Below, piece by piece: positions 1 through 15,509 of a DNA stretch of 15,509 nucleotides. The stretch comes from Naegleria gruberi (lineage: Eukaryota): the NCBI GenBank assembly GCA_000004985.1, contig GG738978.1; one strand, given 5' to 3'. The notes under the pieces are model-generated. The model saw nothing but the letters and a program-made list of their open reading frames with translations. It was not told the DNA's origin and ran no database searches. Position numbers and translations under genes: made by a program. Position 1 is the first letter of the stretch; every line of letters begins with the position of its first letter.

Positions 1-525
1 CCATTGTTTGGATTGTTGTTGAAGAATTATATTTTGGGAGGACAGAGTGCACCAAGAGATGTCTTTTTTGCAAATATCATTCCTGATGTTGTAAAGAATA
101 TGATCTATATTGCAATTGAGGTTGCCTCACTAGCATTGAGAATAATGATCTACTGGGTAACAAAGAAGCTCTTCCGTGACACAACCATTGTTCATAATAC
201 ACCAAGTGCCAAGAAGAAGAGAGAGAAGGAACGTAATCTTTTCAAGCAATTGCTCTTCTATGCCTTACCATTCTTCTTGTTTGGTGTTTGGGTTATTGTG
301 TACAGATTGGCCACTGATATCATTTACGTAGTTCGTGTCGCAGAGCATGGATTGGATTCCTTCTCTGATGATTTGGATTTGCCTGGATTAATTGTTTTGA
401 GTATTCACCACATTTTGAGCCCTCTGAGAGCTTTTGCCAATAGTGTTGTCTATTGCTTGTTATCAAAGTGGTTCAGTGATAGAGTGAAAGGATCTTTCCG
501 TAGGTGTTGTGGTCAAAGAAATTAA
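1..525 (+). CDS. 3' portion of a gene encoding a multi-pass (7TM-receptor-like) membrane protein; 5' end lies outside the window
   Basis: The ORF is open from base 1 in frame 1 and stops with TAA at 523-525. The translation has three strongly hydrophobic ~20-aa helices (MIYIAIEVASLALRIMIYWV, LLFYALPFFLFGVWVIVYRL, GLIVLSIHHILSPLRAFANSVVYCLL) separated by short charged loops, then a short basic tail (KWFSDRVKGSFRRCCGQRN). The family (Frizzled-like, cAR-like, GABA-B-like or other 7TM) cannot be assigned from this fragment. Confidence 0.5.
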   Translation, partial: PLFGLLLKNYILGGQSAPRDVFFANIIPDVVKNMIYIAIEVASLALRIMIYWVTKKLFRDTTIVHNTPSAKKKREKERNLFKQLLFYALPFFLFGVWVIVYRLATDIIYVVRVAEHGLDSFSDDLDLPGLIVLSIHHILSPLRAFANSVVYCLLSKWFSDRVKGSFRRCCGQRN

Positions 526-729
526 AACTATTTATTATTTAAATAACAATTCAATTTGTTTTTACTAGCTATTATTGGGAAGAAGAATATGAGGTGGAAT
601 ATCAACAAGTGGAAGAAGCAAGTTGCTAATCATCAACTGTTGTTGTGTGAAAAAGAAAAGGGTGTGGAATATATCATCGGAATCAATGAAAACTCTGATC
701 ATCAATATAATTGAAACTAGCTACAAAAT

Positions 730-1269
730 TTAGAACATGGAAGAGCTATCTTCATCTCTCAAATATTGACCAACATCAGCTTGGTGGAAACATACGATAT
801 CTGTTGGTTTAACATATCTACATTCATCCGTCGACTTTGCAGCTACACCAAAACCTAATGGAACATCATTCATATTCATAACAACAACACCTTGATATTG
901 TGGACAATCTTCAGTCATTCTACCCAAACCAGTCTTCAAAATGTGATTACCATAGAGGAATGAAAGTTCTGCTTGAGGTTTAACCCAAACTTTATACTCG
1001 GCATATTGAGCAATATAATCCAAACAAGTTACTTCAAGTTTAAACTTTTTAGATTTGGAAAATCTACCAAAGCAAACTCCCACAGTTTTCAGCCTTTCAA
1101 ATGTAATGTTTTCAGCAAATTGTAATACTTGATTACTCATGTAGAAAACCTTATCTTTATGAAATCGGAAAGAGTATTTATCGTTAATTAATTGCTTGAC
1201 ATTCTTGCCAATATACTTGGTAAGTTTATCAAAGAAAGTTTCCATCTCCTCATCAGTTAGTGGACGCAT
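730..1269 (-). CDS. nip7: 60S ribosomal subunit biogenesis protein NIP7 homolog (PUA-domain protein)
   Basis: The minus-strand ORF translates to MRPLTDEEMETFFDKLTKYIGKNVKQL...LYGNHILKTGLGRMTEDCPQYQGVVVMNMNDVPLGFGVAAKSTDECR...VCFHQADVGQYLRDE. This is colinear with eukaryotic NIP7 (~180 aa), including the conserved motifs MRPLT(E/D)EE, FLYGNH(V/I)LK(S/T)GLGR(I/M)TE, QYQGVVV and PLGFGVAAKST. I start it at the internal ATG at 1267-1269 (MRPL...), which gives 180 aa. The ORF-track start at 1317 adds 16 non-conserved residues (MFTKKLKLSPTTLIKK) and is probably 5' leader. The stop TAA is the reverse complement of 730-732. Confidence 0.85.
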   Translation of the reverse strand: MRPLTDEEMETFFDKLTKYIGKNVKQLINDKYSFRFHKDKVFYMSNQVLQFAENITFERLKTVGVCFGRFSKSKKFKLEVTCLDYIAQYAEYKVWVKPQAELSFLYGNHILKTGLGRMTEDCPQYQGVVVMNMNDVPLGFGVAAKSTDECRYVKPTDIVCFHQADVGQYLRDEDSSSMF

Positions 1270-1666
1270 TTTTTTTATGAGTGTTGTTGGTGAGAGTTTC
1301 AACTTTTTGGTGAACAAAAATAATTTTCATCAGCAAATTGTATTTATTGATGAAGATGAGAGAATTTATTGAATAGAAATTTGAAGGAGTGAGAGAAAAA
1401 ATTGAACGGCAATGATTTGGAGAGAGGATGGTGGTGGGAGTGAGATGGACTCTTTTCCGATTTGAGGGAAGAATTGGGAAGATGATTTTATTCAATTTTT
1501 CTTGAATTATTTCATCATTGAAAATAACTTGAAAATATGAGGGCAACTGGTTTCTGTCAAGATAAAGATCAGAATATTAGTGAAATACCAAACATATCAA
1601 AGCATTATTGGTTCTGTTTGTTTCAAATCTCTTTAATTTTATTTTAATTTTCAAAATTAAAAAAAA

Positions 1667-3109
1667 ATGCAAAACAACAAGAGGAATATTGTTATTGCAG
1701 TCATCATGATGATGATGTTTGCAACAACATTTATTTGTGGATCATCAGAAACTGCCTCTAAAATTAAGGAATATTTAAATCAACACAAATCAGATGTTAA
1801 AAACTTGGAAACATTCCAAAGATGGGTCAGATATCCATCACTTCCTGAACAAGAACATGATGTTCAAATTGATATTGCTAAATACTTGAAGGAAGAATTA
1901 AAGTTTAACAAGGTTGATATTTGGACTATGGATGAACAAACAGCTGAATTGGAAAATAACAAATTCTTTAATACTCCACGTAGTTTTGATTCCTTGGCTA
2001 AATCACCAATTGTTGTTGGTGTTTTGGATGGAAGTGCTCCAGAAGAAGTTGAAACATCAACTGAAGGACAAGTTACTGCATTCAAGAAGCATAAATCCCT
2101 GATTATCAATGGACATATTGATGTCGTTCCTGTCGGTAATCCAAAGGCTTGGTATTTGGAAAATCCTTTCAGTGGTCACATTAACAATTCCAATATTTAT
2201 GGTAGAGGTACTACTGATATGAAGGGTGGTTTGTATGCTGGTTTGTTGGCTATTGAAGCAGTTCAAAGAGCTCTCAATGTCACTAACATGAAGGGTAAGA
2301 TTATTGTTCACAGTGTTGTTGAAGAAGAAAGTGGTGGTGCTGGTACTGTCAGTGCTGTTTTGAGAGGATATGGTCATGCTGATGCTGGTATTTTCCCAGA
2401 ACCTTCTAATTTCTTAATTTTCCCACAACAACAAGGTTCTTTGTGGTTCAGAATTACTGTCCATGGTAAGAGTGCTCATGGTGGTACTAGATATGATGGT
2501 ATTAGTGCTATTGAAAAGTCTCAAATTGTCTTGAATGCTATCAAGAAATTGGAATTTGAAAGAACTCATCTCATTAGAAATGTTCTCAAGCAAAAACTCT
2601 TTGAAAATATTACCATTCCAGTTCCAATCAATGTTGGTGTTATTAAGGGTGGTGAATGGCCAAGTAGTGTTCCAGATTTTACTGTCATTGAAGGTCGTTT
2701 TGGTATTATTCCAAATTATGAAACTGTTGAAGATGCCAAGAAGGTTTTGAATGATTTGGTTTTCAAGATTATTGTAGAAGAAGATCCAGAACATTTCAAT
2801 GCTTACCCATCTAAATTGGAATTTATTGGTGCCAGTTGGGTTCCAGGTTATGTCCCATTAGAACATGAATTTGTTAGTCAGCTTACTAAATCCTTCAGTC
2901 AAGTCACTGGACAAGATCCAATTATTGCCTCAAGTCCTTGGGCTACTGATGCTGGTTACGTTAATGCTTTGGGTAATACACCTAGTGTTGTGTTTGGGCC
3001 TGGTGTCACTCATATGGCTCACCAAACTAATGAATATATTCCAATTGAAAATATTTACAAGGCTGCTGAAGTTATTGCTAATACCATTGTTGATTGGTGT
3101 GGTGTTTAA
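1667..3109 (+). CDS. Peptidase M20 family (ArgE/DapE/ACY1/CPG2-like) zinc metallopeptidase/deacylase with an N-terminal signal peptide
   Basis: 480-aa ORF. The start ATG follows an A-run (aaaaaaaATG). Residues 8-25 (IVIAVIMMMMFATTFICG) form a hydrophobic N-terminal segment, consistent with a signal peptide. The M20 metal-binding and catalytic signatures are present in order: GHIDVVP, GRGTTDMKGG, HSVVEEESGG (Glu-Glu pair), the dimerisation-domain region with KSAHGG, and a C-terminal H(M)AHQTNEY(I) motif. The length and domain order match ArgE/DapE-type enzymes. Confidence 0.8.
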   Translation: MQNNKRNIVIAVIMMMMFATTFICGSSETASKIKEYLNQHKSDVKNLETFQRWVRYPSLPEQEHDVQIDIAKYLKEELKFNKVDIWTMDEQTAELENNKFFNTPRSFDSLAKSPIVVGVLDGSAPEEVETSTEGQVTAFKKHKSLIINGHIDVVPVGNPKAWYLENPFSGHINNSNIYGRGTTDMKGGLYAGLLAIEAVQRALNVTNMKGKIIVHSVVEEESGGAGTVSAVLRGYGHADAGIFPEPSNFLIFPQQQGSLWFRITVHGKSAHGGTRYDGISAIEKSQIVLNAIKKLEFERTHLIRNVLKQKLFENITIPVPINVGVIKGGEWPSSVPDFTVIEGRFGIIPNYETVEDAKKVLNDLVFKIIVEEDPEHFNAYPSKLEFIGASWVPGYVPLEHEFVSQLTKSFSQVTGQDPIIASSPWATDAGYVNALGNTPSVVFGPGVTHMAHQTNEYIPIENIYKAAEVIANTIVDWCGV

Positions 3110-3262
3110 TTTATTTAAATTTTTATTAAATTATTATTTATTAATACATATTAATTGATTTTCTTATTATTTAATAATTATTTAAAAATTGGAAAATACT
3201 CTAAAAATAAATTCCATCAAATAAAAAATATTTAAATTTCCATCTTCCTTTGGAACCAACAA

Positions 3263-4039
3263 ATGACTGATCATATCAAAGTTAGAACAGTTTTGGATGG
3301 TATTGTCAAGGTACCAAAATCCACTACTCTACAAACCATCACCGATCTCAAGAAGGGAATTTACAATTTACGAGGATGGGAAGCATCCACACAACATTTG
3401 TATCAGAATGGTACGGAGTTGAAGGATGATCAAACTCTTTCCGATTCACTTCTTTCCAAAGGCTTTGTATTATTAATTCCAATTAATCATCAACAGAGAA
3501 GATATAAGAGTAAGATAGAGATTGAATCGGAGGCTCAACAATCAACAGCTAGTAGTGGTTCTAATTTATTGCCAACAACTCCAACATCATCAGGATCAAC
3601 CGGATCAGTCTCTGATCAATTGGCACAAATTATGCATGAATTTACATCAACTCATCCTTCAGGAAATACCACTACAACCACTGCAACAAGACCACCAACA
3701 CAACCTGTACAAAATACTACACAACAACCAAGAACAACTGCACCACCAACGACAACTCAACCACCAAGACCAACCCAACCAAGTATTAGTGATATTCAAA
3801 GACAATTATTAATTGATAATTTCCCTGTAGATGATGGTTTGGTAGGCATGGTTATGGAGTTGGGTTTTTCAAAGAGAATTGCAAAGAAGGCTCTCATTCT
3901 TCATAATCTCGACCCAGAAGCTGCAGTGGAATGGATATTTTCAAACGTTGATAATCCATACATATTGGAAAGTGAATTTAGTGTAGAAGAACTCATGCAA
4001 TTAGCTCAAAAATACCAAAATGCAATGAGAGACGAATAG
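3263..4039 (+). CDS. Small ubiquitin-like (UBL) plus UBA domain protein with Thr/Pro/Gln-rich linker
   Basis: 258-aa ORF. The N-terminal ~75 aa (IKVRTVLDGIVKVPKSTTLQTITDLKKGIYNLRGWEASTQHLYQNGTELKDDQTLSDSLLSKGFVLLI) has the hydrophobic periodicity of a ubiquitin-like beta-grasp fold. The C-terminal segment (LVGMVMELGFSKRIAKKALILHNLDPEAAVEWIFSN) matches the UBA consensus (hydrophobic-x-x-hydrophobic-GF...A..AL....N..E.A..W-hydrophobic). Between them is a low-complexity T/P/Q-rich linker typical of dictyostelid proteins. The UBL call is weaker than the UBA call. Confidence 0.6.
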   Translation: MTDHIKVRTVLDGIVKVPKSTTLQTITDLKKGIYNLRGWEASTQHLYQNGTELKDDQTLSDSLLSKGFVLLIPINHQQRRYKSKIEIESEAQQSTASSGSNLLPTTPTSSGSTGSVSDQLAQIMHEFTSTHPSGNTTTTTATRPPTQPVQNTTQQPRTTAPPTTTQPPRPTQPSISDIQRQLLIDNFPVDDGLVGMVMELGFSKRIAKKALILHNLDPEAAVEWIFSNVDNPYILESEFSVEELMQLAQKYQNAMRDE

Positions 4040-4157
4040 AAGAGGAAACAATTACTGAGCAAATTATCTCTGTATTATTATCTCTTTTCAACAAAATGCA
4101 AAATGCATTACTGAATACAATTTTCTCCAATTAGGACTTGTTTTATTTCAATAACAA

Positions 4158-5959
4158 NNNNNNNNNNNNNNNNNNNNNNNNNNNNNNNNNNNNNNNNNNN
4201 NNNNNNNNNNNNNNNNNNNNNNNNNNNNNNNNNNNNNNNNNNNNNNNNNNNNNNNNNNNNNNNNNNNNNNNNNNNNNNNNNNNNNNNNNNNNNNNNNNNN
4301 NNNNNNNNNNNNNNNNNNNNNNNNNNNNNNNNNNNNNNNNNNNNNNNNNNNNNNNNNNNNNNNNNNNNNNNNNNNNNNNNNNNNNNNNNNNNNNNNNNNN
4401 NNNNNNNNNNNNNNNNNNNNNNNNNNNNNNNNNNNNNNNNNNNNNNNNNNNNNNNNNNNNNNNNNNNNNNNNNNNNNNNNNNNNNNNNNNNNNNNNNNNN
4501 NNNNNNNNNNNNNNNNNNNNNNNNNNNNNNNNNNNNNNNNNNNNNNNNNNNNNNNNNNNNNNNNNNNNNNNNNNNNNNNNNNNNNNNNNNNNNNNNNNNN
4601 NNNNNNNNNNNNNNNNNNNNNNNNNNNNNNNNNNNNNNNNNNNNNNNNNNNNNNNNNNNNNNNNNNNNNNNNNNNNNNNNNNNNNNNNNNNNNNNNNNNN
4701 NNNNNNNNNNNNNNNNNNNNNNNNNNNNNNNNNNNNNNNNNNNNNNNNNNNNNNNNNNNNNNNNNNNNNNNNNNNNNNNNNNNNNNNNNNNNNNNNNNNN
4801 NNNNNNNNNNNNNNNNNNNNNNNNNNNNNNNNNNNNNNNNNNNNNNNNNNNNNNNNNNNNNNNNNNNNNNNNNNNNNNNNNNNNNNNNNNNNNNNNNNNN
4901 NNNNNNNNNNNNNNNNNNNNNNNNNNNNNNNNNNNNNNNNNNNNNNNNNNNNNNNNNNNNNNNNNNNNNNNNNNNNNNNNNNNNNNNNNNNNNNNNNNNN
5001 NNNNNNNNNNNNNNNNNNNNNNNNNNNNNNNNNNNNNNNNNNNNNNNNNNNNNNNNNNNNNNNNNNNNNNNNNNNNNNNNNNNNNNNNNNNNNNNNNNNN
5101 NNNNNNNNNNNNNNNNNNNNNNNNNNNNNNNNNNNNNNNNNNNNNNNNNNNNNNNNNNNNNNNNNNNNNNNNNNNNNNNNNNNNNNNNNNNNNNNNNNNN
5201 NNNNNNNNNNNNNNNNNNNNNNNNNNNNNNNNNNNNNNNNNNNNNNNNNNNNNNNNNNNNNNNNNNNNNNNNNNNNNNNNNNNNNNNNNNNNNNNNNNNN
5301 NNNNNNNNNNNNNNNNNNNNNNNNNNNNNNNNNNNNNNNNNNNNNNNNNNNNNNNNNNNNNNNNNNNNNNNNNNNNNNNNNNNNNNNNNNNNNNNNNNNN
5401 NNNNNNNNNNNNNNNNNNNNNNNNNNNNNNNNNNNNNNNNNNNNNNNNNNNNNNNNNNNNNNNNNNNNNNNNNNNNNNNNNNNNNNNNNNNNNNNNNNNN
5501 NNNNNNNNNNNNNNNNNNNNNNNNNNNNNNNNNNNNNNNNNNNNNNNNNNNNNNNNNNNNNNNNNNNNNNNNNNNNNNNNNNNNNNNNNNNNNNNNNNNN
5601 NNNNNNNNNNNNNNNNNNNNNNNNNNNNNNNNNNNNNNNNNNNNNNNNNNNNNNNNNNNNNNNNNNNNNNNNNNNNNNNNNNNNNNNNNNNNNNNNNNNN
5701 NNNNNNNNNNNNNNNNNNNNNNNNNNNNNNNNNNNNNNNNNNNNNNNNNNNNNNNNNNNNNNNNNNNNNNNNNNNNNNNNNNNNNNNNNNNNNNNNNNNN
5801 NNNNNNNNNNNNNNNNNNNNNNNNNNNNNNNNNNNNNNNNNNNNNNNNNNNNNNNNNNNNNNNNNNNNNNNNNNNNNNNNNNNNNNNNNNNNNNNNNNNN
5901 NNNNNNNNNNNNNNNNNNNNNNNNNNNNNNNNNNNNNNNNNNNNNNNNNNNNNNNNNNN
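4158..5959. other. Run of 1802 N (unresolved/hard-masked sequence)
   Basis: Uninterrupted n characters. All long ORFs reported across this interval are artefacts of translating N as X. The block ends 45 bp upstream of the tRNA-Ser gene. Confidence 0.99.
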
Positions 5960-6011
5960 CCCACATTCATTATTTAATAATCATATTAATATATTGGATA
6001 TCAAGTTGAGG

Positions 6012-6022
6012 TGGCCGAGTGG
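6012..6022 (+). promoter_or_regulatory. Pol III internal A-box of the tRNA-Ser gene
   Basis: TGGCCGAGTGG matches the A-box consensus TRGCNNAGTGG at tRNA positions 8-18. Confidence 0.75.
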
Positions 6023-6063
6023 TTAAGGCGCCAGCCTGCTAAGTTGGTGGAGTAATCCGCGTG

Positions 6064-6074
6064 GGTTCGAATCC
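6064..6074 (+). promoter_or_regulatory. Pol III internal B-box of the tRNA-Ser gene
   Basis: GGTTCGAATCC is an exact match to the B-box consensus in the T-arm. Confidence 0.8.
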
Positions 6075-6085
6075 CATCCTCAACG

Positions 6086-6091
6086 TTTTTT
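6086..6091 (+). terminator. RNA polymerase III terminator (T6) immediately after the tRNA discriminator base
   Basis: tttttt at 6086-6091 directly follows G6085. A run of 4 or more T on the coding strand is the canonical Pol III termination signal. Confidence 0.8.
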
Positions 6092-6306
6092 CATGCTTGC
6101 ATTTTTATCTCCAATCAACTTTCAAGTAGCTGCGGGTCAAGTCATCACACTAAATAATGGCACAATTTACAAAAAAACAAAAGAACTCACAACAGACCTT
6201 CCACCTCATCACTTCTTTAATCTTTTTCACATTAACTTCTCAACACATCATCACAATTAAAATTTAATAATTAATTTATTCGAAACTATTCGTCATCAGC
6301 ATAATT

Positions 6307-9300
6307 ATGGATATTTTCTGTGTGTGTATAGCAGAATTTGATTTACTCAAAGGAAACACACTTTCACATGTGTATCCACCCGAACGAAGAACTATTCTAA
6401 ACACTTTCACATCTCATTTGGGAGATTATTGTCTTCCGGATGGTGCTCACTATTTTGAAGAGGATGCTACCTATCTGGTAATTCCTTCAAATGTTGTGAG
6501 TTCTTCTCTGTATAGTTATTTGAAATCGGGTGCTTCTTCTAACAATGTTTCTAGTGTTTCGAATAGTGAGAATAGTTCAGTTGTTAATAATACACAACAA
6601 GTAATGGAATTTATTGAACCCTATGTGGATAAACCAATGTATGCTCATTGTTTATTTAGAAATAAGAAGGATGAACGTGTCAAGAGAGGCGCCATTCAAA
6701 AGTCAATTATTTTATTTTCATCAAAACCATTATTTACTGTTTATGAGAATTTATTGAGATTGGCATTGAATAGAATTTTGGATTTGGATAATATTCACTT
6801 ACAGGTTAATGCTACAGCTACTAAGAAACAACCAGGTGAAGAATTAAACGAAACGGATTTAAATCTTTTGAATCAAGTTCATGATCAGATTAATGATACT
6901 TTGAAAGAGTTTTATAACGAGTGCAGAAATTGTAACATGTTACAATTGAAATTATTCCCAAATACTGATACTATTACTTTGAATATTCCACGTCAGATTG
7001 ATCCATTCACACCAATTGCATTTACACATGGAACTTCTCTTGTACAATTAGTTCAATATTTTGGATTGGAAACAATGCTTGTTTGTTGGAATGCTCTATT
7101 ATTGGATAAGAGAATTATGGTAATTGGTTCACCTGCCAAGTTGGTTTCACAGATCTGTCTCACTCTTCCTCTCTTGATTTATCCATTCCAATATAATGTC
7201 AATCGTGTACATCCATATGTGCCACTCTCAGAGATGGATGATGTGTTATCTGCAACTTCTAAAATTCCAGAATATATCATTGGTACGACGAATGCTCTCT
7301 TTGAAACTCAAGGAAAAAATCAGAGAACTCAATGGTGGGATGTTTGTTTGAGTGTCAATTCTAGAAAAGTTCAACTTGCTGAAAAGATGCCACCTCATTT
7401 CGGTGGCTCTGATTTGGCATTCCTCAATACAAATGATAGCGAAGACGTTCAAATTGAAAAGCTCAATGCCTATCAGAAAGTATTCATGTTAAATGTCATT
7501 AGTGGAGTGAGAGATGGAAAGAGTGAACAATGGGTTCGTGATCAGTTCAAAACTCACAATCTCAAGTTTATTACCGAATTATTGACAAAGGGAAAGCTTA
7601 CTGATATAGTTGAGAATGTTCCGTCTGATGTAGGTGTCGATCCACAAAAACAACAAGTGGCTTTGAAGAATATTTCAGGAGGTCAATTGAAAAAGATTCA
7701 AAGACAGTTCATTGCTGAATCCTCCAAGTTTAGAACCTATGCTTTCAAACAATATTCAACATTTAGAAGTTCACACTGTAGTGGAGATAAGAGTGATGAC
7801 AAACAATCGGAATCTGTTCTCCAATTATTGCAATATTTACAGGACGATAGGATTATCAAGAAGCAAAAGCTTAAATACTTGTTTGATTTGGATAAGATGT
7901 TGTGTAATGTTGATCAAATTGACTTGTTATTGTCAGTTAGTGATAATTCAAGTATTTTTACAACTATTAAGAATAACAAGTGGTTAATTGATGATAATAA
8001 TCAGTGGAGAAAGTACAGTGCCAGTATTTTATCCCAATTGGCAATTAGTGTTAAAGGTCAAATTCAATTATTGTCTCTTCTTCCATCTATCAAACTCTTG
8101 ACCGAAGATTCAATGCCAAATGTCAAGAGAATTGGTTATTACTGTATTATGAAGGTTAGCAACTTGTACATTGGTACATATGCCATCTTGAGAAACCACC
8201 ACGACATTATTGAAAAGATTCTTGATAACATTTTGAATGAGAGTGTGACAGATGCCAATTTTTATGAAATTAGAATGTACAGCATTCAAACCTTGTTACA
8301 AATTTGTCACTATTTTGATTATTTCAAACAGAGTATTAATGTTATCATGACAGATAAGGTCAATAATAATATGATTGAAGATGACGATGCCTACGCCAAG
8401 ATTGTCAGTGTTTCCGTTGATAATTCCATGATTTCTTCAATTGTTGAAAAATTGGAAGGATTTAAAACTAAAATTGCTGGCAGTTTCTCCTACAGTAGTA
8501 TTTCCAATAACAGTGTAGCAAAAAGAAGTTTGAACGATTACAAATTCATTGACAAGTTACTGATTCTCTACGATTACTATGAACTCTATAATAATTACCA
8601 CATTCTCACTGAGAGTGCTCTCAAGTACAATATGAATGTCTTTTATTATTTGAGAAATTTTGACAATTCTCAGGCAAATTCATCCTTCACTGAAATGTAT
8701 CATCACATCTCATCTATCATTATGAATATTAAGAATGATTTGAAGAAGAGTAGTTCAGTTCAACAATCAGAGGGCGAAGATTCCAGTGATCCTCAAACAC
8801 ACATCAATGAATTCCATCATCACCACATGAGTGTTTACTTGTTAGCTCTCTTACAAAGCACCAATTTGATCAATATCATTTTCAATGAATTTATTTTGAA
8901 CGTGAATCATATCAAAACTTACAAGAATTACAAAATGCTCTACATGGTCATGCAATTATTGTACTATGTCATTGATACCAATGTTGGAATGTACTATTTA
9001 TTAATTTCCAATTATATTGAATATTGCTTGACATTTATCAAGTACTTTTCCATTTTGAAGAACAATGATCCAGAGGAAAGCAGTGAGGGCAATTTGAATT
9101 TCAGACTTTTCAAATGTTATTCCTTTATCATGTTCCTCAAAAGACTTTGCAAGTATAAGAAGGCAGCGTGTAGACTCATTGAATCTAATGCTCTTCATAT
9201 TTTAGGTCAATTCATCATTACTCATTATTACAATCCATTATTATCCAATTTGACCTATGCAGCCATTGATGTATTCCAAGATCTTTCTGTATTTTACTTT

Positions 9301-9816
9301 ACACACTATTCCAATCCATTGGATTCTCAATGTGTAACCCAATATTTCATTGAAGAGGATTCCACCAATAGCAGTGGCAACCAAGACGAGGAAGAATTCT
9401 TTAAAAATCCACTCTATGAGAGAAATTCCACATTGTACTTTAAGAAGAGAATTAAGGATCGTCTGGAAATTCTGCCAGAACTCAGAAAGAAACATTTATT
9501 CAATTCTCTCTACAAAATTGCCTCAGCAACCTCAAAAACTGAAGATTTTGAAAAGAATTTCCAACACGAAGCCATGTTAGAAAGCTCAAACTTCAAATAC
9601 CATTATCATTTACAAAAACCAAGTGAGAAATCTCCGAGAGTTCTTTCAAGACTTTCCAAATTTAAACAAAAATTTACAGTGCAAACTAGTGAAAATGATG
9701 GAGATGATCATTTTGAGATGAATGTTTTGGATCAGAAATTGAGACAGTGTGTTCATATTTTGAATACTTTTATTTTCAATTCAGATAATGAAATGAAACT
9801 TTCTTCTGAGGAATAA
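6307..9816 (+). CDS. DENN-domain protein of the DENND6/AVL9 subfamily (putative Rab GEF) with a ~700-aa lineage-specific C-terminal extension
   Basis: 1169-aa uninterrupted ORF. The N-terminus MDIFCVCIAEFDLLKGNTLSHVYPPE matches the uDENN start of DENND6/FAM116 (…[21 protein letters not shown]…) and AVL9 (…VVGFHHKKGCQVEFSYPP). The later block TMLVCWNALLLDKRIMVIGSPAKLVSQICLTLPLLIYPFQY matches the cDENN core of the same family (…LWELVLLGEPLVVMAPSP…ALV.CISPLKY). The remaining C-terminal ~700 aa is Asn/Ser/Tyr-rich and predicted helical, with no assignable domain. Confidence 0.75.
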   Translation: MDIFCVCIAEFDLLKGNTLSHVYPPERRTILNTFTSHLGDYCLPDGAHYFEEDATYLVIPSNVVSSSLYSYLKSGASSNNVSSVSNSENSSVVNNTQQVMEFIEPYVDKPMYAHCLFRNKKDERVKRGAIQKSIILFSSKPLFTVYENLLRLALNRILDLDNIHLQVNATATKKQPGEELNETDLNLLNQVHDQINDTLKEFYNECRNCNMLQLKLFPNTDTITLNIPRQIDPFTPIAFTHGTSLVQLVQYFGLETMLVCWNALLLDKRIMVIGSPAKLVSQICLTLPLLIYPFQYNVNRVHPYVPLSEMDDVLSATSKIPEYIIGTTNALFETQGKNQRTQWWDVCLSVNSRKVQLAEKMPPHFGGSDLAFLNTNDSEDVQIEKLNAYQKVFMLNVISGVRDGKSEQWVRDQFKTHNLKFITELLTKGKLTDIVENVPSDVGVDPQKQQVALKNISGGQLKKIQRQFIAESSKFRTYAFKQYSTFRSSHCSGDKSDDKQSESVLQLLQYLQDDRIIKKQKLKYLFDLDKMLCNVDQIDLLLSVSDNSSIFTTIKNNKWLIDDNNQWRKYSASILSQLAISVKGQIQLLSLLPSIKLLTEDSMPNVKRIGYYCIMKVSNLYIGTYAILRNHHDIIEKILDNILNESVTDANFYEIRMYSIQTLLQICHYFDYFKQSINVIMTDKVNNNMIEDDDAYAKIVSVSVDNSMISSIVEKLEGFKTKIAGSFSYSSISNNSVAKRSLNDYKFIDKLLILYDYYELYNNYHILTESALKYNMNVFYYLRNFDNSQANSSFTEMYHHISSIIMNIKNDLKKSSSVQQSEGEDSSDPQTHINEFHHHHMSVYLLALLQSTNLINIIFNEFILNVNHIKTYKNYKMLYMVMQLLYYVIDTNVGMYYLLISNYIEYCLTFIKYFSILKNNDPEESSEGNLNFRLFKCYSFIMFLKRLCKYKKAACRLIESNALHILGQFIITHYYNPLLSNLTYAAIDVFQDLSVFYFTHYSNPLDSQCVTQYFIEEDSTNSSGNQDEEEFFKNPLYERNSTLYFKKRIKDRLEILPELRKKHLFNSLYKIASATSKTEDFEKNFQHEAMLESSNFKYHYHLQKPSEKSPRVLSRLSKFKQKFTVQTSENDGDDHFEMNVLDQKLRQCVHILNTFIFNSDNEMKLSSEE

Positions 9817-9973
9817 AAATTATATTCGAAAGTATATCATGTTATGGAAATGTAATGTTTGGAAAGTAGTGGAGGAGTAATAGAAATATATTTTGGTAAA
9901 TTTGCAAATTTGTTAACAATTGACAATCTGTTATTTGTGTGGAATTTGTTTGCATGTCAGTAGCATTAGAATT

Positions 9974-12696
9974 NNNNNNNNNNNNNNNNNNNNNNNNNNN
10001 NNNNNNNNNNNNNNNNNNNNNNNNNNNNNNNNNNNNNNNNNNNNNNNNNNNNNNNNNNNNNNNNNNNNNNNNNNNNNNNNNNNNNNNNNNNNNNNNNNNN
10101 NNNNNNNNNNNNNNNNNNNNNNNNNNNNNNNNNNNNNNNNNNNNNNNNNNNNNNNNNNNNNNNNNNNNNNNNNNNNNNNNNNNNNNNNNNNNNNNNNNNN
10201 NNNNNNNNNNNNNNNNNNNNNNNNNNNNNNNNNNNNNNNNNNNNNNNNNNNNNNNNNNNNNNNNNNNNNNNNNNNNNNNNNNNNNNNNNNNNNNNNNNNN
10301 NNNNNNNNNNNNNNNNNNNNNNNNNNNNNNNNNNNNNNNNNNNNNNNNNNNNNNNNNNNNNNNNNNNNNNNNNNNNNNNNNNNNNNNNNNNNNNNNNNNN
10401 NNNNNNNNNNNNNNNNNNNNNNNNNNNNNNNNNNNNNNNNNNNNNNNNNNNNNNNNNNNNNNNNNNNNNNNNNNNNNNNNNNNNNNNNNNNNNNNNNNNN
10501 NNNNNNNNNNNNNNNNNNNNNNNNNNNNNNNNNNNNNNNNNNNNNNNNNNNNNNNNNNNNNNNNNNNNNNNNNNNNNNNNNNNNNNNNNNNNNNNNNNNN
10601 NNNNNNNNNNNNNNNNNNNNNNNNNNNNNNNNNNNNNNNNNNNNNNNNNNNNNNNNNNNNNNNNNNNNNNNNNNNNNNNNNNNNNNNNNNNNNNNNNNNN
10701 NNNNNNNNNNNNNNNNNNNNNNNNNNNNNNNNNNNNNNNNNNNNNNNNNNNNNNNNNNNNNNNNNNNNNNNNNNNNNNNNNNNNNNNNNNNNNNNNNNNN
10801 NNNNNNNNNNNNNNNNNNNNNNNNNNNNNNNNNNNNNNNNNNNNNNNNNNNNNNNNNNNNNNNNNNNNNNNNNNNNNNNNNNNNNNNNNNNNNNNNNNNN
10901 NNNNNNNNNNNNNNNNNNNNNNNNNNNNNNNNNNNNNNNNNNNNNNNNNNNNNNNNNNNNNNNNNNNNNNNNNNNNNNNNNNNNNNNNNNNNNNNNNNNN
11001 NNNNNNNNNNNNNNNNNNNNNNNNNNNNNNNNNNNNNNNNNNNNNNNNNNNNNNNNNNNNNNNNNNNNNNNNNNNNNNNNNNNNNNNNNNNNNNNNNNNN
11101 NNNNNNNNNNNNNNNNNNNNNNNNNNNNNNNNNNNNNNNNNNNNNNNNNNNNNNNNNNNNNNNNNNNNNNNNNNNNNNNNNNNNNNNNNNNNNNNNNNNN
11201 NNNNNNNNNNNNNNNNNNNNNNNNNNNNNNNNNNNNNNNNNNNNNNNNNNNNNNNNNNNNNNNNNNNNNNNNNNNNNNNNNNNNNNNNNNNNNNNNNNNN
11301 NNNNNNNNNNNNNNNNNNNNNNNNNNNNNNNNNNNNNNNNNNNNNNNNNNNNNNNNNNNNNNNNNNNNNNNNNNNNNNNNNNNNNNNNNNNNNNNNNNNN
11401 NNNNNNNNNNNNNNNNNNNNNNNNNNNNNNNNNNNNNNNNNNNNNNNNNNNNNNNNNNNNNNNNNNNNNNNNNNNNNNNNNNNNNNNNNNNNNNNNNNNN
11501 NNNNNNNNNNNNNNNNNNNNNNNNNNNNNNNNNNNNNNNNNNNNNNNNNNNNNNNNNNNNNNNNNNNNNNNNNNNNNNNNNNNNNNNNNNNNNNNNNNNN
11601 NNNNNNNNNNNNNNNNNNNNNNNNNNNNNNNNNNNNNNNNNNNNNNNNNNNNNNNNNNNNNNNNNNNNNNNNNNNNNNNNNNNNNNNNNNNNNNNNNNNN
11701 NNNNNNNNNNNNNNNNNNNNNNNNNNNNNNNNNNNNNNNNNNNNNNNNNNNNNNNNNNNNNNNNNNNNNNNNNNNNNNNNNNNNNNNNNNNNNNNNNNNN
11801 NNNNNNNNNNNNNNNNNNNNNNNNNNNNNNNNNNNNNNNNNNNNNNNNNNNNNNNNNNNNNNNNNNNNNNNNNNNNNNNNNNNNNNNNNNNNNNNNNNNN
11901 NNNNNNNNNNNNNNNNNNNNNNNNNNNNNNNNNNNNNNNNNNNNNNNNNNNNNNNNNNNNNNNNNNNNNNNNNNNNNNNNNNNNNNNNNNNNNNNNNNNN
12001 NNNNNNNNNNNNNNNNNNNNNNNNNNNNNNNNNNNNNNNNNNNNNNNNNNNNNNNNNNNNNNNNNNNNNNNNNNNNNNNNNNNNNNNNNNNNNNNNNNNN
12101 NNNNNNNNNNNNNNNNNNNNNNNNNNNNNNNNNNNNNNNNNNNNNNNNNNNNNNNNNNNNNNNNNNNNNNNNNNNNNNNNNNNNNNNNNNNNNNNNNNNN
12201 NNNNNNNNNNNNNNNNNNNNNNNNNNNNNNNNNNNNNNNNNNNNNNNNNNNNNNNNNNNNNNNNNNNNNNNNNNNNNNNNNNNNNNNNNNNNNNNNNNNN
12301 NNNNNNNNNNNNNNNNNNNNNNNNNNNNNNNNNNNNNNNNNNNNNNNNNNNNNNNNNNNNNNNNNNNNNNNNNNNNNNNNNNNNNNNNNNNNNNNNNNNN
12401 NNNNNNNNNNNNNNNNNNNNNNNNNNNNNNNNNNNNNNNNNNNNNNNNNNNNNNNNNNNNNNNNNNNNNNNNNNNNNNNNNNNNNNNNNNNNNNNNNNNN
12501 NNNNNNNNNNNNNNNNNNNNNNNNNNNNNNNNNNNNNNNNNNNNNNNNNNNNNNNNNNNNNNNNNNNNNNNNNNNNNNNNNNNNNNNNNNNNNNNNNNNN
12601 NNNNNNNNNNNNNNNNNNNNNNNNNNNNNNNNNNNNNNNNNNNNNNNNNNNNNNNNNNNNNNNNNNNNNNNNNNNNNNNNNNNNNNNNNNNNNNNN
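9974..12696. other. Run of 2723 N (unresolved/hard-masked sequence)
   Basis: Uninterrupted n characters. ORFs spanning it (9920-12730, 9939-12707, 9931-12747) are artefacts, apart from their real non-N ends. The right edge abuts copy A of the tandem family. Confidence 0.99.
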
Positions 12697-13310
12697 TCGA
12701 TTTTTGAAATTATTTCTGTTTTCTCCTTGATCTAATTGTGCACACATAACTGCAGAAGGAATAGATTTAATTGTTGATGGTTGTGGAGAGAGTTTGAAGT
12801 TTCGTCTAGTTGGGGATCATTTCGAATGGTTTCTAATGATTGAACAAGTGGAATTGGCTCTTGGTTTTGATATGATACGTTGCTGATCTTTGGTGGAGAG
12901 GAGCTGACTTGTTTAGTTACAATTAATTGCTCATTTTCGAATGATTTAATGTCATCAATGCGAAAGACTGAAGTTTCGTCTTTTTCTCTATCCAAAACAA
13001 AGTAATTCTTCAATAATTCATCATTGCATAATTGTTTCCTGAGTTCGTGCTTGGCAGACTTTACTTTCTTCTTGTTTATTCTATTCAATGTTTTACTAGT
13101 TTCGTCTGTGAACATTAGTTTCGGATTCTTTCCATTATTCATCATGGAATCTTTTTGGTATTTTATTTGATCACGTAATTTGAGATTTTTGCTTCTGAAC
13201 CTGTCAACAATTCAGCAAGGACTTTAGCACCACTTTCTATCAAGAAATTTCCAACAGAAAGAGTTGTATAGTTGACAGATATCAAAATTAAGGCACCTGA
13301 CATGTGTCAT
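12697..13310 (-). repeat. Duplicated genomic unit, copy A (ORF plus ~35 bp 3' flank and ~165 bp 5' flank), homologous to 14376-14890 and partly to 15202-15420
   Basis: Nucleotide-level similarity runs through the coding region and beyond it. One 5'-flank example is ctgaattgttgacaggttcag...aaaatctcaaattacg in A versus ctgatgatgacaggtctgtac...aaaaactctcaaacca in B. The 3' flank gaaattatttctgttttctccttgatctaattgtgcacacataactg is shared with copy C. The unit boundary on the low-coordinate side is hidden by the N-run. Confidence 0.5.
12732..13145 (-). CDS. Small hypothetical protein, copy A of a tandem lineage-specific family (basic conserved N-terminal ~70-aa domain plus variable Q/N/P-rich tail); probably C-terminally truncated by a frameshift
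   Basis: 137-aa minus-strand ORF MMNNGKNPKLMFTDETSKTLNRINKKKVKSAKHELRKQLCNDELLKNYFVLDREKDETSVFRIDDIKSFENEQLIVTKQ.... Its first ~75 residues are ~70% identical to the ORF at 14376-14825, and the end matches the 3' fragment at 15202-15420. The DNA homology extends beyond the ORF into both flanks. No recognisable domain; the K/R-rich segment suggests nucleic-acid binding. Confidence 0.45.
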   Translation of the reverse strand: MMNNGKNPKLMFTDETSKTLNRINKKKVKSAKHELRKQLCNDELLKNYFVLDREKDETSVFRIDDIKSFENEQLIVTKQVSSSPPKISNVSYQNQEPIPLVQSLETIRNDPQLDETSNSLHNHQQLNLFLLQLCVHN

Positions 13311-14375
13311 GAGAGGAAGATAAGGTTGAATAAAAACGAAACATGTTAAATTTAGTTTATTTCTTTTTTGTTTATTTCTCGTAGAAGCTCCTCTTCTTTG
13401 CAGACCTCTATTTTCTCCATTACTCTTTAAGGAAATAATTAGTGACTTTCTTTTTAGAAACAAGAGTTTCGGATATCAAAATATTAATAATAATACCTTT
13501 TCATTAAATAGGCAATCCACATTTTCCAAAAACACTTTAATCATGTAGAAAAGGGAGAATTCATTTATAGACTTTTCAGTCGAAATTTACCATTTGTTGA
13601 TTTGTAATTATTCGAAAATGATTTATTTCAGAAATGATGAGTATCCTTTGTTATATTTCACTGAATAGTTTTTCAGAAAAAGTTTTCCACTATCACTCAC
13701 TACATGTGTTGAAACACATTGTTGAACAAAGTTCTGAGTTATTTTTAATACTCTTCAATTCCACTTAATAATGCTTTCATTTACAATTATTGTACATTAA
13801 AATTGTGTTTGTTGATGAATTGATGTAAATTCTTGCCAGGTTTGATGTGACAGACTGATTCGGTCTGGTTGACAATACATGAACACACTACTAGCTGTTG
13901 ATTGTTGATCCTCTAGATTCAATCTATTTGATTGTGGTATTAAAATGTTACATGACCACACCTTTTTTTGACACACATGTACATGTAGCTGTTGTGTGCA
14001 TGTTCAGCAATTTAACAAATATGATAACAATTGAAGCATGCTATATCTCTTTCGAAACCTCCACTATTAACTTTCTTCTAACAACATTATTCCGGTGCTA
14101 CATGTAAGCACACATGGTCAGCATGTTATTTCTTTTTTGTTTGAACGTATTGGAAGTCTACATGTTGTAACCTCAACAACATGATGACTTTCTAATATTT
14201 CAATTTCACCAAAAGCAGTGAAATGACTCATTTTAAGCAGGCAAATTGCTTTTAAACGATCTAATGAATTTGTAACAGTGGTATTATTCAAGATTAGTTT
14301 GCCTAAATCTGCCTTCTTCGCGTAATTGACTGGCCGAAAGTCATGGATCCATTTACAAATCTCCAACTTGCAGAT

Positions 14376-14825
14376 TTATTGAAAGCAACTTCTTTTTTGC
14401 CCTTCTTGTTGGTGAATGAGTGCACAACACAATTGTAGAAGGAATTGGTTCATTTCTTGTTGGTTGTGGATGGTGTTTATAATTTCGTCTGGTTGTGGAT
14501 CATTTCGAATGATTTCAGATACTTGTACTGGTGGATTTGGTTCATGGTGATGAGTTGATTGGACGTTAGTGACCATTGAGTGTTTAGTCACAATTACTTG
14601 CTCATTTTCTAATGGTGTGTTTTCAATTCGAAAGACAACAGTTTCGTCCTTTTCAGGGTTCAAAACAAAGTAATTCTTTAATAAATCATCATTACACAAC
14701 TGTTTTCTCAATTCATGTTTGGCAGATATCTTTTCCTTCTTCTTATGTATTCTATTCAATGTTTTACAAGTTTCGTCCATAAACTTTATAACTTTCTCCT
14801 TCTTTCTAATATTCGAATTTTTCAT
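14376..14825 (-). CDS. Small hypothetical protein, copy B of the same tandem family
   Basis: 149-aa minus-strand ORF MKNSNIRKKEKVIKFMDETCKTLNRIHKKKEKISAKHELRKQLCNDDLLKNYFVLNPEKDETVVFRIENTPLENEQVIVTKH...NQFLLQLCCALIHQQEGQKRSCFQ. It aligns residue-for-residue with copy A over the conserved domain, with one codon indel. The stop TAA at 14376-14378 is followed in the same frame by 85 more open codons (14118-14375). Confidence 0.45.
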   Translation of the reverse strand: MKNSNIRKKEKVIKFMDETCKTLNRIHKKKEKISAKHELRKQLCNDDLLKNYFVLNPEKDETVVFRIENTPLENEQVIVTKHSMVTNVQSTHHHEPNPPVQVSEIIRNDPQPDEIINTIHNQQEMNQFLLQLCCALIHQQEGQKRSCFQ

Positions 14826-14890
14826 TGGTTTGAGAGTTTTTTATTTTAATTTGTACAGACCTGTCATCATCAGTACGTATGTGAAGCATG
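14376..14890 (-). repeat. Duplicated genomic unit, copy B
   Basis: Homologous to 12732-13310 in both the coding region and the 5' flank (see copy A). About 70% nucleotide identity with multiple indels, so this is an old duplication rather than a recent mobile-element copy. Confidence 0.5.
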
Positions 14891-15201
14891 AACAATTATA
14901 ATTTGTAACTTCTAATCTGAGAATTTGAGATTATAGAGTTGAATTTGGCAATTAATTTTGTCCTTTTCAGAGCATCAAATTGAAGTGTTTACATGGGTGA
15001 TACAATGACATCTAACTGAAGTGTTTGACGTGTTTGTGAAATGAAGTTTATTCGAAATTAAACGTAATTTTCTAATTGTTCCATTCAGGATCAAGTCAAA
15101 TTTGATTCTTGTTCATTGACTACGGTCCTTTTCATTGATGTTCACTAATCTTAATTTAGATGCCAATTTGAAAAGGCAAGTAAATGTTCTAAAACTATTG
15201 T

Positions 15202-15420
15202 TTATTGGATGGAGATGATAGCTCTTGGCCAGTTTCGTAAACTCGTCTTGGAAACGAAAAATCTTAAAGATTCAGAGAAATTATTTCTGTTTTCTCCTTG
15301 CTCTAATTGTGCACAACATAACTGTGGAAGGAATAGATTGAATTGTTGGTTGTGGAGAGAGAGTTTGAAGTTTTGTCGAGTTGGGGATCATTTCTAAGTT
15401 GCCGATCTTTGGTGGAGAAA
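15202..15420 (-). pseudogene. Copy C: 3'-terminal fragment of a third paralog of the tandem family (5' part absent or diverged; may continue beyond the window end)
   Basis: Reverse-complement translation gives ...LRNDPQLDKTSNSL...QQFNLFLPQLCCAQLEQGENRNNFSESLRFFVSKTSLRNWPRAIISIQ*. This parallels the copy A tail (IRNDPQLDETSNSLHNHQQLNLFLLQLCVHN) and the copy B tail (…QFLLQLCCALIHQQEGQKRS…). The nucleotide match to 12707-12900 runs from gaaattatttctgttttctccttg through gttgc(c/t)gatctttggtggaga, with an internal ~55-bp deletion relative to copy A. Beyond 15421 the similarity to copies A and B is lost. Confidence 0.4.
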
Positions 15421-15509
15421 TCGATAAAATAATAGAGAAACAATAAAGAGATTGAATAAATTGAGAGTTTATGAAAGCATAAATATGTGGGTGCCGTAGC
15501 TTTGTGGCA

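What the first reader, a model, noticed from the sequence alone, without database searches (positions are those of the whole stretch)
12697..15420. Diverged tandem array (copies A, B and a 3' fragment C) of an unassignable small gene, with homology extending into flanks
Three minus-strand units within 2.7 kb share homology both in coding sequence and in flanking DNA. The encoded proteins have a conserved basic N-terminal ~70-aa block (FxDETxKTLNRIxKKKxKxSAKHELRKQLCNDxLLKNYFVLxxEKDETxVFRIxxxxxENEQxIVTK) that I cannot match to any domain family from memory. They also share a variable N/Q/P-rich middle and a conserved ...NxFLLQLCCA... end. The ~70% nucleotide identity and the many indels indicate old duplications. 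Copy A directly abuts the 2.7-kb masked block, so the array may continue into it or belong to a dispersed repeat family whose better-conserved members were masked. This could be either a fast-evolving lineage-specific gene family or decayed copies of an uncharacterised repetitive element carrying an ORF.
Basis: seen in the sequence. Interest (0 to 1): 0.6.

Follow-up and report, generated by a model that had tools for sequence, protein, structure and literature searches.

The report
Orphan small-gene tandem array in Naegleria
The repeats are real: two tandem copies and one broken fragment of a small protein-coding gene from an undescribed family found only in the amoebae Naegleria gruberi and Willaertia magna, kept by selection but of unknown function, so it is an ordinary lineage-specific gene family and not a mobile element.

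Summary
The window is a complete 15,509-bp scaffold of the Naegleria gruberi NEG-M assembly. It is a redundant, probably allelic, copy of part of a 351,708-bp scaffold.

Copy A (12732-13145, -) and copy B (14376-14825, -) are 74% identical over 413 nt (E 2e-72). Fragment C (15277-15418, -) is an 89.5%-identical 3' piece of an A-like gene. It has an internal deletion and a frameshift, so it is a pseudogene remnant.

Homology stops at the coding sequence. 5' and 3' flanks score no better than shuffles.

dN/dS between A and B is 0.15 in the conserved N-terminal block and 0.34 overall, so these are selected genes, not debris.

On the main scaffold the family forms a run of at least four consecutively numbered genes (NAEGRDRAFT_71130-71133) plus a divergent one (71135). 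Profile searches add one more N. gruberi gene, six Willaertia magna genes (some in tandem) and two environmental contigs. Nothing was found in N. fowleri or N. lovaniensis.

There is no Pfam, PDB or fold match, and AlphaFold confidence is low.

The shared module is F-x-DET ... LRKxL-N-x2-LL-x-NYF. It is a basic helix-plus-hairpin core, followed by an acidic, variable tail.

The best guess is a small nuclear adaptor or regulator. That function is inferred, not shown.

The parts
12732..13145 (-). Copy A: 137-aa ORF of the family. It is the allele of NAEGRDRAFT_71131 (P0004). Its C-terminus is cut short by a 1-nt deletion about 48 nt from the N-run edge, and homologous coding sequence continues to 12697.
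14376..14825 (-). Copy B: intact 149-aa single-exon gene, identical to annotated NAEGRDRAFT_76403 (P0006). It is 99% identical to NAEGRDRAFT_71132 on the 351,708-bp scaffold.
15277..15418 (-). Fragment C: the 3' third of an A-like copy. It has a ~55-nt internal deletion and a frameshift, with no start codon and no N-terminal module. It is a pseudogene remnant.
   Evidence: (HMM E 1.3e-4)
12906..13112 (-). Conserved basic N-terminal module of copy A (F-T-DET ... IVTK). This is the part shared with all family members, including Willaertia.
14583..14783 (-). Conserved basic N-terminal module of copy B (residues 15-81). dN/dS against copy A is 0.15. The model predicts helices at 19-44 and a beta-hairpin at 51-66.
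9974..12696 (.). N run of 2,723 nt abutting copy A. By analogy with the main scaffold, this is where a further paralogue (71130-like) is expected.
   Evidence: inference

Best explanation
Identity of the sequence. The region holds two tandem, same-strand, single-exon paralogues (A and B) and one truncated pseudogene fragment (C). They belong to a taxonomically restricted protein-coding family of the vahlkampfiid amoebae Naegleria gruberi and Willaertia magna. The window is a whole small scaffold of the N. gruberi NEG-M assembly. It duplicates, most likely as an alternative haplotype, a stretch of a 351,708-bp scaffold. There the family forms a run of at least four consecutively numbered genes plus a divergent fifth.

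History. The copies arose by old local duplications (dS about 0.7 between A and B), so only the selected coding sequence is still alignable. C is a younger partial duplicate of an A-like copy that has decayed.

Protein architecture. The proteins are 137-200 aa, have no signal peptide or transmembrane segment, and have three parts.
1. A conserved basic module of about 55-70 aa, with invariant F..DET, LRK.L.N..LL.NYF, predicted as helices followed by a beta-hairpin.
2. A variable, disordered linker rich in Q, N, P and H.
3. An acidic or amphipathic C-terminal helix that differs between subfamilies.

Inferred mechanism (not shown). The basic module binds nucleic acid or a conserved nuclear partner, or acts as a nuclear targeting element. 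The C-terminal helix recruits a lineage-variable partner. On this reading the proteins are small nuclear adaptors or regulators whose partner-binding end diversifies after tandem duplication.
For: Organism and scaffold:
- P0006 (NAEGRDRAFT_76403) is identical to copy B and sits on a contig of exactly 15,509 bp.
- The NIP7 protein of the window is the same sequence as EFC41097 on the 351,708-bp scaffold.
- The DENN protein has a 98% twin there.
- B is 99% identical to 71132, and A matches 71131.

Array:
- 71130-71133 and 71135 lie on one scaffold; 76319, 76320 and 76322 lie on a 43,517-bp scaffold.

Selection:
- NG86 dN/dS is 0.34 overall and 0.15 in the N-terminal block (66 codons, dS 0.77, Fisher p 3.6e-6). 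It is 0.55 in the rest.

Restricted distribution:
- A profile search of 1.84 billion representatives gives only 5 hits.
- An alignment search of 5.8 billion clusters gives 11 hits. All are N. gruberi or W. magna except one unnamed environmental contig sequence, P0014.
- A W. magna tandem pair is read directly from DNA (L003 10001-10606 and 11182-11775).

Architecture:
- Alignments A3 and A4 show the invariant residues.
- AF2 secondary structure is reproducible in two runs.
- The core has net charge +5 to +9 and pI 9.5-10.8. The remainder has net charge -5 to -14 in 11 of 13 members.

Not a transposon:
- No flank homology, no notable inverted or terminal repeats, and no transposon domains.
Against: - The functional part is inference from composition and a low-confidence model (pLDDT 60, pTM 0.20).
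- There is no domain, structure or fold match of any kind.
- No expression data could be reached; N. gruberi is not in the contig look-up.
- Copy A carries a frameshift in this scaffold. It may be a real pseudogene allele or a read-end error next to the gap.
- Haplotig status rests on protein identities and locus-tag order, not on a DNA alignment of the two scaffolds.
- Three different B alleles exist on three scaffolds (P0001, P0005, P0006). That is more than a simple diploid would give.
Confidence: 0.7

Rival explanations
1. The units are decayed copies of an uncharacterised dispersed repetitive or mobile element that carries an ORF. On this view the better-conserved copies are hidden in the N blocks.
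For: - Three copies lie within 2.7 kb, one of them truncated.
- The array abuts an N run.
- Versions occur on three N. gruberi scaffolds.
Against: - Homology is confined to coding sequence; flanks are at shuffle level.
- There are no terminal inverted or direct repeats bounding the units.
- There are no transposase, integrase or RT domains.
- Purifying selection acts on the protein.
- The other scaffolds also carry identical or near-identical neighbouring genes (NIP7 100%, DENN 98%). They are therefore copies of the same locus, not dispersed insertions.
- The family has only about a dozen distinct sequences (90%-identity clusters) in two genera.
Confidence: 0.04
2. The genes are real, but the proteins are short-lived regulators built from short linear motifs, not a folded nucleic-acid-binding module. 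Candidate roles are a phosphatase or kinase inhibitor or a degradation-regulated cell-cycle factor. The invariant motifs would be a hydrophobic-x-F/I followed by DET (loosely like the PP1-docking RVxF) and R-K-x-L (the minimal RxxL of a destruction box).
For: - Several members read K/T/D-V-S-F-I-D-E-T, and LRKxL is invariant except for one LRKDM.
- The proteins are largely predicted disordered with low pLDDT.
- The motif resemblance itself is from my own knowledge of the consensus patterns, not from a tool.
Against: - Many members break the RVxF consensus (FNFIDET, FSFVDET, FSIIDET).
- The spacing after RxxL does not fit the full D-box, which needs N at position 9; here N is at position 6 (alignment).
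- The conserved stretch is about 40-55 residues, with regularly spaced hydrophobic positions and a reproducibly predicted hairpin. This is more than a linear motif.
Confidence: 0.12
3. The array in this window is non-functional. Copy A is frameshifted and C is a fragment, so the whole 15.5-kb scaffold would represent a degenerating duplicate. The selection signal would then come only from the time before duplication.
For: - Frameshift in A relative to P0004, and C is broken.
- A is apparently not annotated on this scaffold. Only two of the five tags 76399-76403 could be assigned here, 76399 (NIP7) and 76403 (B).
Against: - B is intact and differs from its main-scaffold twin by one residue in 149.
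- NIP7 is 100% identical and DENN 98% identical and both are open. That fits an allele better than a decaying duplicate.
- The A lesions lie within 50 nt of the gap edge, where read quality is typically poor (inference).
Confidence: 0.1

Closest known systems
N. gruberi 'predicted proteins' NAEGRDRAFT_71130, 71131, 71132, 71133 (XP_002673842-45), 71135, 76319, 76320, 76322, 76403
   Same: Same family and same locus. B is identical to 76403 and 99% to 71132. A is the allele of 71131. These are single-exon proteins of 138-152 aa with the same N-terminal module and the FLLQLCCA C-terminal helix.
   Different: The window copy of A carries a frameshift. Fragment C has no annotated counterpart that I could see. 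None of these entries has a name, domain or published function.
Willaertia magna hypothetical proteins ABK040_006246, 006247, 006269, 012533, 012534, 016271
   Same: They share the invariant F.[IV]DET ... LRKQLQN..LL.NYF module and the basic-core, acidic-tail layout. They also occur as same-strand tandem pairs.
   Different: They are only 24-31% identical to B. They have poly-N N-termini, a longer linker and a different conserved C-terminal block (ILISEEFGLKLDLEDFIQSLK) in place of FLLQLCCA.
Taxonomically restricted ('orphan') tandem gene families in protist genomes, as a general kind
   Same: Small intron-less genes in head-to-tail arrays, with a conserved core and rapidly diverging remainder, pseudogene fragments inside the array, and no homologues outside a narrow clade.
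   Different: No surface, secretion or antigenic features are present (no signal peptide or transmembrane segment), unlike most well-studied protist multigene families. The copy number is small.
MADS-box and SAP DNA-binding modules
   Same: Superficial only. MADS has a basic helix followed by a beta-hairpin, and 'KFIENKTRR' resembles 'NFIDETSKTRE'. SAP has an ELR.xL..-type helix.
   Different: Profile-profile comparison gives probability 0.09% for MADS and 0.14% for SAP. No Pfam hit was found. The family is not a member of either.

Membership tests
Tandemly duplicated, taxonomically restricted protein-coding gene family | Two or more adjacent same-strand paralogous ORFs with significant similarity | tested here: met
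   A and B are 74% identical over 413 nt, E 2e-72, both on the minus strand, with starts 1.68 kb apart.
Tandemly duplicated, taxonomically restricted protein-coding gene family | Purifying selection on the encoded protein | tested here: met
   dN/dS is 0.15 in the N-terminal block (p 3.6e-6) and 0.34 overall (p 3.8e-5). Only one pair could be tested at the DNA level.
Tandemly duplicated, taxonomically restricted protein-coding gene family | Homologues confined to a narrow clade | tested here: met
   Only N. gruberi, W. magna and two unnamed environmental contigs were found among 1.84 billion and 5.8 billion sequences. A metagenome DNA scan found none. Unannotated genes in other genomes could not be searched genome-wide.
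Tandemly duplicated, taxonomically restricted protein-coding gene family | Transcribed and translated | not testable with these tools
   No N. gruberi transcript data could be reached. No paper mentions the locus tags.
Transposable or dispersed repetitive element | Repeat unit extends beyond the ORF, with shared termini (TIR, LTR or target-site duplications) | tested here: not met
   Flank comparisons are at shuffle level. Only short, imperfect inverted repeats were found, and none frames a unit.
Transposable or dispersed repetitive element | Encodes a transposition enzyme or a known TE protein | tested here: not met
   No Pfam family reaches threshold in 11 members.
Transposable or dispersed repetitive element | Many dispersed genomic copies | tested here: inconclusive
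   At the protein level there are six distinct paralogues in N. gruberi, five of them in the one array and one on another scaffold. Extra scaffolds share flanking genes, so they are the same locus. A genome-wide BLASTN was not possible.
Alternative-haplotype scaffold (haplotig) of the N. gruberi assembly | Same genes, near-identical products, on a larger scaffold | tested here: met
   NIP7 is 100% identical, DENN 98%, B 99%, and A corresponds to 71131.
Alternative-haplotype scaffold (haplotig) of the N. gruberi assembly | Collinear DNA alignment at allelic divergence | not testable with these tools
   The DNA of the main scaffold was not retrievable.
MADS-box (SRF-TF, PF00319) | Profile similarity to the MADS domain | tested here: not met
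   hhalign probability is 0.09% and there is no Pfam hit.
SAP domain (PF02037) | Profile similarity to the SAP motif | tested here: not met
   hhalign probability is 0.14% and there is no Pfam hit.

The most novel reading that the evidence does not exclude
The conserved F-x-DET ... LRKxLxNxxLLxNYF helix-hairpin module could be a previously undescribed nucleic-acid-binding or nuclear partner-binding domain specific to vahlkampfiid Heterolobosea. The tandem paralogues would then form a small family of lineage-specific regulators whose partner-binding C-termini diversify. A more extreme version also cannot be excluded, because three allelic forms of B and apparently differing gene content occur on three scaffolds. 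In that version the array would be a haplotype-variable, conflict-driven locus, for example mating-type-linked or drive-like. I give that extreme version no more than a few per cent.
Probability: 0.2. Interest if true: 0.45.

Novelty: new member of a known kind. Interest (0 to 1): 0.22.

Why it matters
If the inference holds, this adds one more undescribed protein family to the large 'predicted protein' fraction of heterolobosean genomes, with a defined conserved module that could be entered into domain databases. It also gives a small, tractable example of tandem duplication followed by divergence of one protein end and decay of a partial copy. Practically, it shows that this scaffold is a redundant copy of a locus on a larger scaffold. 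Copy counts taken from the N. gruberi draft assembly therefore overstate the family size. It does not bear on any long-standing open question, and specialists would not be surprised by it.

Tried and rejected
- Pfam scans of A, B and 11 family members: nothing near threshold.
- PDB sequence search with a single protein and with the profile: nothing.
- AlphaFold2 with 4-sequence and 11-sequence alignments: both low confidence, pLDDT about 60 and pTM about 0.2.
- MADS-box and SAP leads, recalled from memory, were rejected by hhalign.
- PP1 RVxF and D-box motif leads were judged by eye on the alignment only. They fit inconsistently and are kept as a low-probability rival.
- The 'Class I' differentiation-specific mRNA of Naegleria was checked and is irrelevant; it is a ~7-kb mRNA.
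- Literature search by locus tag returned no papers. The Naegleria differentiation microarray paper is not held.
- Retrieval of main-scaffold DNA through exact-protein look-ups failed because N. gruberi is not on record.
- The metagenome DNA scan with family patterns produced no confirmed relative.
- Synteny tests found no family member within 10 kb of N. fowleri NIP7 (L004, L005) or of the DENN orthologues of N. lovaniensis and W. magna (L006, L007). The neighbourhoods are not conserved, so this only weakly supports absence.
- tRNA and Rfam scans found nothing inside the finding's coordinates.
Full report
**What the window is**

The region is AT-rich (about 30-35% G+C) and carries long uninterrupted eukaryote-type ORFs:
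- NIP7 (730-1317, -)
- an M20 peptidase (1667-3109, +)
- a ubiquitin/UBA protein (3263-4039, +)
- a DENN/SPA/Afi1 protein (6307-9816, +)

A database search with copy B returned only Naegleria gruberi 'predicted proteins'. The exact-sequence look-up shows that copy B is identical to NAEGRDRAFT_76403, which sits on a contig of exactly 15,509 bp, the length of the window. The window is therefore a whole small scaffold of the N. gruberi NEG-M assembly.

Several results tie it to a 351,708-bp scaffold:
- Its NIP7 protein is the same sequence as EFC41097 there.
- Its DENN protein has a 98%-identical twin there (P0026).
- B is 99% identical to NAEGRDRAFT_71132, and A corresponds to 71131.

I conclude that the scaffold is a redundant, probably allelic, copy of that locus. 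This is an inference, because the DNA of the main scaffold could not be fetched. A third version exists on a 43,517-bp scaffold (76319, 76320, 76322).

**Checking the observation**

ORF A (12732-13145, -, 137 aa) and ORF B (14376-14825, -, 149 aa) align at 74.3% identity over 413 columns, E 2e-72 (families D1-D6).

Fragment C (15277-15418, -) matches the 3' third of A at 89.5% (E 2e-41), plus a 21-nt piece at 95%. It matches B only at 75%. A three-way alignment shows that C lacks about 55 nt internally and changes frame between ...NDPQLDKTSNSL and ...FNLFLPQLCCAQLEQGENRNNF. It has no N-terminal module and no start codon. C is a decayed partial duplicate of an A-like copy.

The claim of flank homology does not hold.
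- 5' flanks of A and B give z = -0.1 against shuffles.
- 3' flanks of B and C give z = -0.4.
- The sequence upstream of C matches nothing.

What looked like 3'-flank homology between A and C (12706-12731) is coding sequence in the intact allele. P0004 ends LCCAQLDQGENRNNFQ. The window's A has lost one base in tgttgtgca, giving LCVHN-stop. That lesion lies about 48 nt from the edge of the N run, and the last codons before the run also differ from the allele. It may therefore be a read-end error instead of a true pseudogene. This is an inference.

A six-frame HMM scan finds no further copies in the spacers. No tRNA or Rfam family lies in the finding. The only one in the window is tRNA-Ser(GCU) at 6005-6085.

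**Genes or debris?**

Nei-Gojobori estimates between A and B are as follows.

| Region | dN/dS | dN | dS | Fisher p, nonsynonymous vs synonymous |
|---|---|---|---|---|
| 131 aligned codons | 0.34 | not stated | not stated | 3.8e-5 |
| 66-codon N-terminal block | 0.15 | 0.118 | 0.77 | 3.6e-6 |
| Remainder | 0.55 | not stated | not stated | 0.18 |

The reading frame on the minus strand is therefore under purifying selection, most strongly in the N-terminal module. With dS near 0.7, unselected flanks would no longer be alignable. That explains why similarity stops at the ORF ends.

There are no transposon-type domains and no terminal repeats framing the units. The other scaffolds carrying the family share the neighbouring genes, so they are copies of one locus, not insertions. 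The mobile-element reading is rejected.

**Extent of the family**

On the main scaffold, the locus tags 71130 (P0003, 152 aa), 71131 (A allele), 71132 (B allele) and 71133 (P0002, 150 aa, 87% to B) are consecutive. 71135 (twin of P0013, about 40% identical) follows shortly after.

Search results:
- An HMM search of 1.84 billion representative proteins gave only five hits.
- An alignment-seeded search of 5.8 billion clusters gave eleven.
- Beyond the array, these are one more N. gruberi gene (P0021), six Willaertia magna genes and two unnamed environmental contigs.
- The W. magna genes are ABK040_006246/006247, 006269, 012533/012534 and 016271.
- The 006247/006246 pair was read from DNA as two same-strand, intron-less ORFs 576 nt apart (L003).

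No member was found among the annotated proteins of N. fowleri or N. lovaniensis, although those proteomes are in the database. None lies within 10 kb of N. fowleri NIP7 or of the N. lovaniensis or W. magna DENN orthologues. Those neighbourhoods are not syntenic, so this is weak evidence. A metagenome DNA scan added nothing.

**What the protein looks like**

Across both genera the invariant residues are F15, D17-E18-T19, L39-R40-K41, L48, L49 and N51-Y52-F53. L43, N45 and T80 are nearly invariant (B numbering).

The stretch from DET to NYF is strongly basic, with net charge +5 to +9 and pI 9.5-10.8. The remainder has net charge -5 to -14 in 11 of 13 members.

Two AlphaFold2 runs agree on the layout, but with low confidence (mean pLDDT about 60, pTM about 0.2):
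- helices over residues about 19-44
- a beta-hairpin at 51-56 and 61-66
- a disordered 70-111 segment
- a C-terminal helix from about 112

There is no signal peptide or membrane-length hydrophobic segment (read directly from the sequences). The C-terminal helix differs by subfamily:
- FLLQLCCALI in the array
- ILISEEFGLKLDLEDFIQSLK in Willaertia
- LNIASFLSS...STFL in P0014 and P0021

**Comparison with known families**

Nothing matches.
- Pfam: best E 0.025, and all hits below the curated cut-offs that were listed.
- PDB sequences: none with the profile.
- Foldseek against PDB: best E 1.3.
- The two resemblances I recalled, MADS-box and SAP, were tested by profile-profile alignment and failed, at 0.09% and 0.14% probability.
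- No paper mentions the locus tags.

**Most likely mechanism**

Shown:
- a selected, tandemly duplicated, clade-restricted small-protein family
- a conserved basic N-terminal module and a diverging tail

Inferred (my estimate about 0.25-0.3):
- The basic helix-hairpin module binds nucleic acid or a conserved nuclear partner, or acts as a nuclear import signal.
- The amphipathic or acidic C-terminal helix recruits variable partners.
- The proteins would thus be small nuclear adaptors or regulators.

A rival is that the conserved residues are docking or degradation motifs in an otherwise disordered regulator. This is possible but fits the alignment inconsistently.

**Verdict**

The genes are already deposited as unnamed predicted proteins. 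What is new is only the delimitation of the family, its conserved module, its presence in Willaertia, and the recognition that this scaffold is a duplicate representation of a larger locus. Interest is low to moderate.

Noticed in passing
window 1-15509: The window is an entire 15,509-bp scaffold of the N. gruberi assembly, and it duplicates a locus on a 351,708-bp scaffold (NIP7 100%, DENN 98%, copy B 99% protein identity). A third version of the array lies on a 43,517-bp scaffold. Three distinct alleles of copy B therefore exist (P0001, P0005, P0006), which is more than a simple diploid would give.
   Followed up: partly
window 12697-12750: Copy A's frameshift (a 1-nt deletion in tgttgtgca) and its altered last codons lie within about 50 nt of the N-run edge. 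This may be a read-end sequencing error and not a true pseudogene allele.
   Followed up: partly
window 6005-6085 (+): A tRNA-Ser (anticodon GCT) sits 45 nt after the first N run (4158-5959) and about 220 nt upstream of the DENN-domain gene. It scores 62.4 bits in Rfam.
   Followed up: no
window 4-525 (+): An ORF reaching to within 3 nt of the scaffold start encodes several hydrophobic segments and has no significant Pfam match. It is probably the 3' part of a membrane-protein gene cut by the scaffold end.
   Followed up: no
L004 5032-9715 (N. fowleri, upstream of NIP7): Two adjacent same-strand genes with Exo_endo_phos and RVT_1 domains lie next to N. fowleri NIP7. This is the signature of a non-LTR (LINE-like) retrotransposon. 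The NIP7 neighbourhood is not syntenic with N. gruberi.
   Followed up: no
L006 17926-20729 (N. lovaniensis, downstream of the DENN orthologue): Two adjacent gene models both hit the RNA-dependent RNA polymerase family (PF05183). They are probably one split RdRP gene.
   Followed up: no
L003 10001-11775 and W. magna ABK040_012533/012534: The Willaertia members also occur as same-strand tandem pairs. They share a strongly conserved acidic C-terminal block (ILISEEFGLKLDLEDFIQSLK) that is absent from the N. gruberi array. One annotated member (P0016, 151 aa) lacks this block, while its 90%-cluster mate (P0019, 199 aa) has it.
   Followed up: partly
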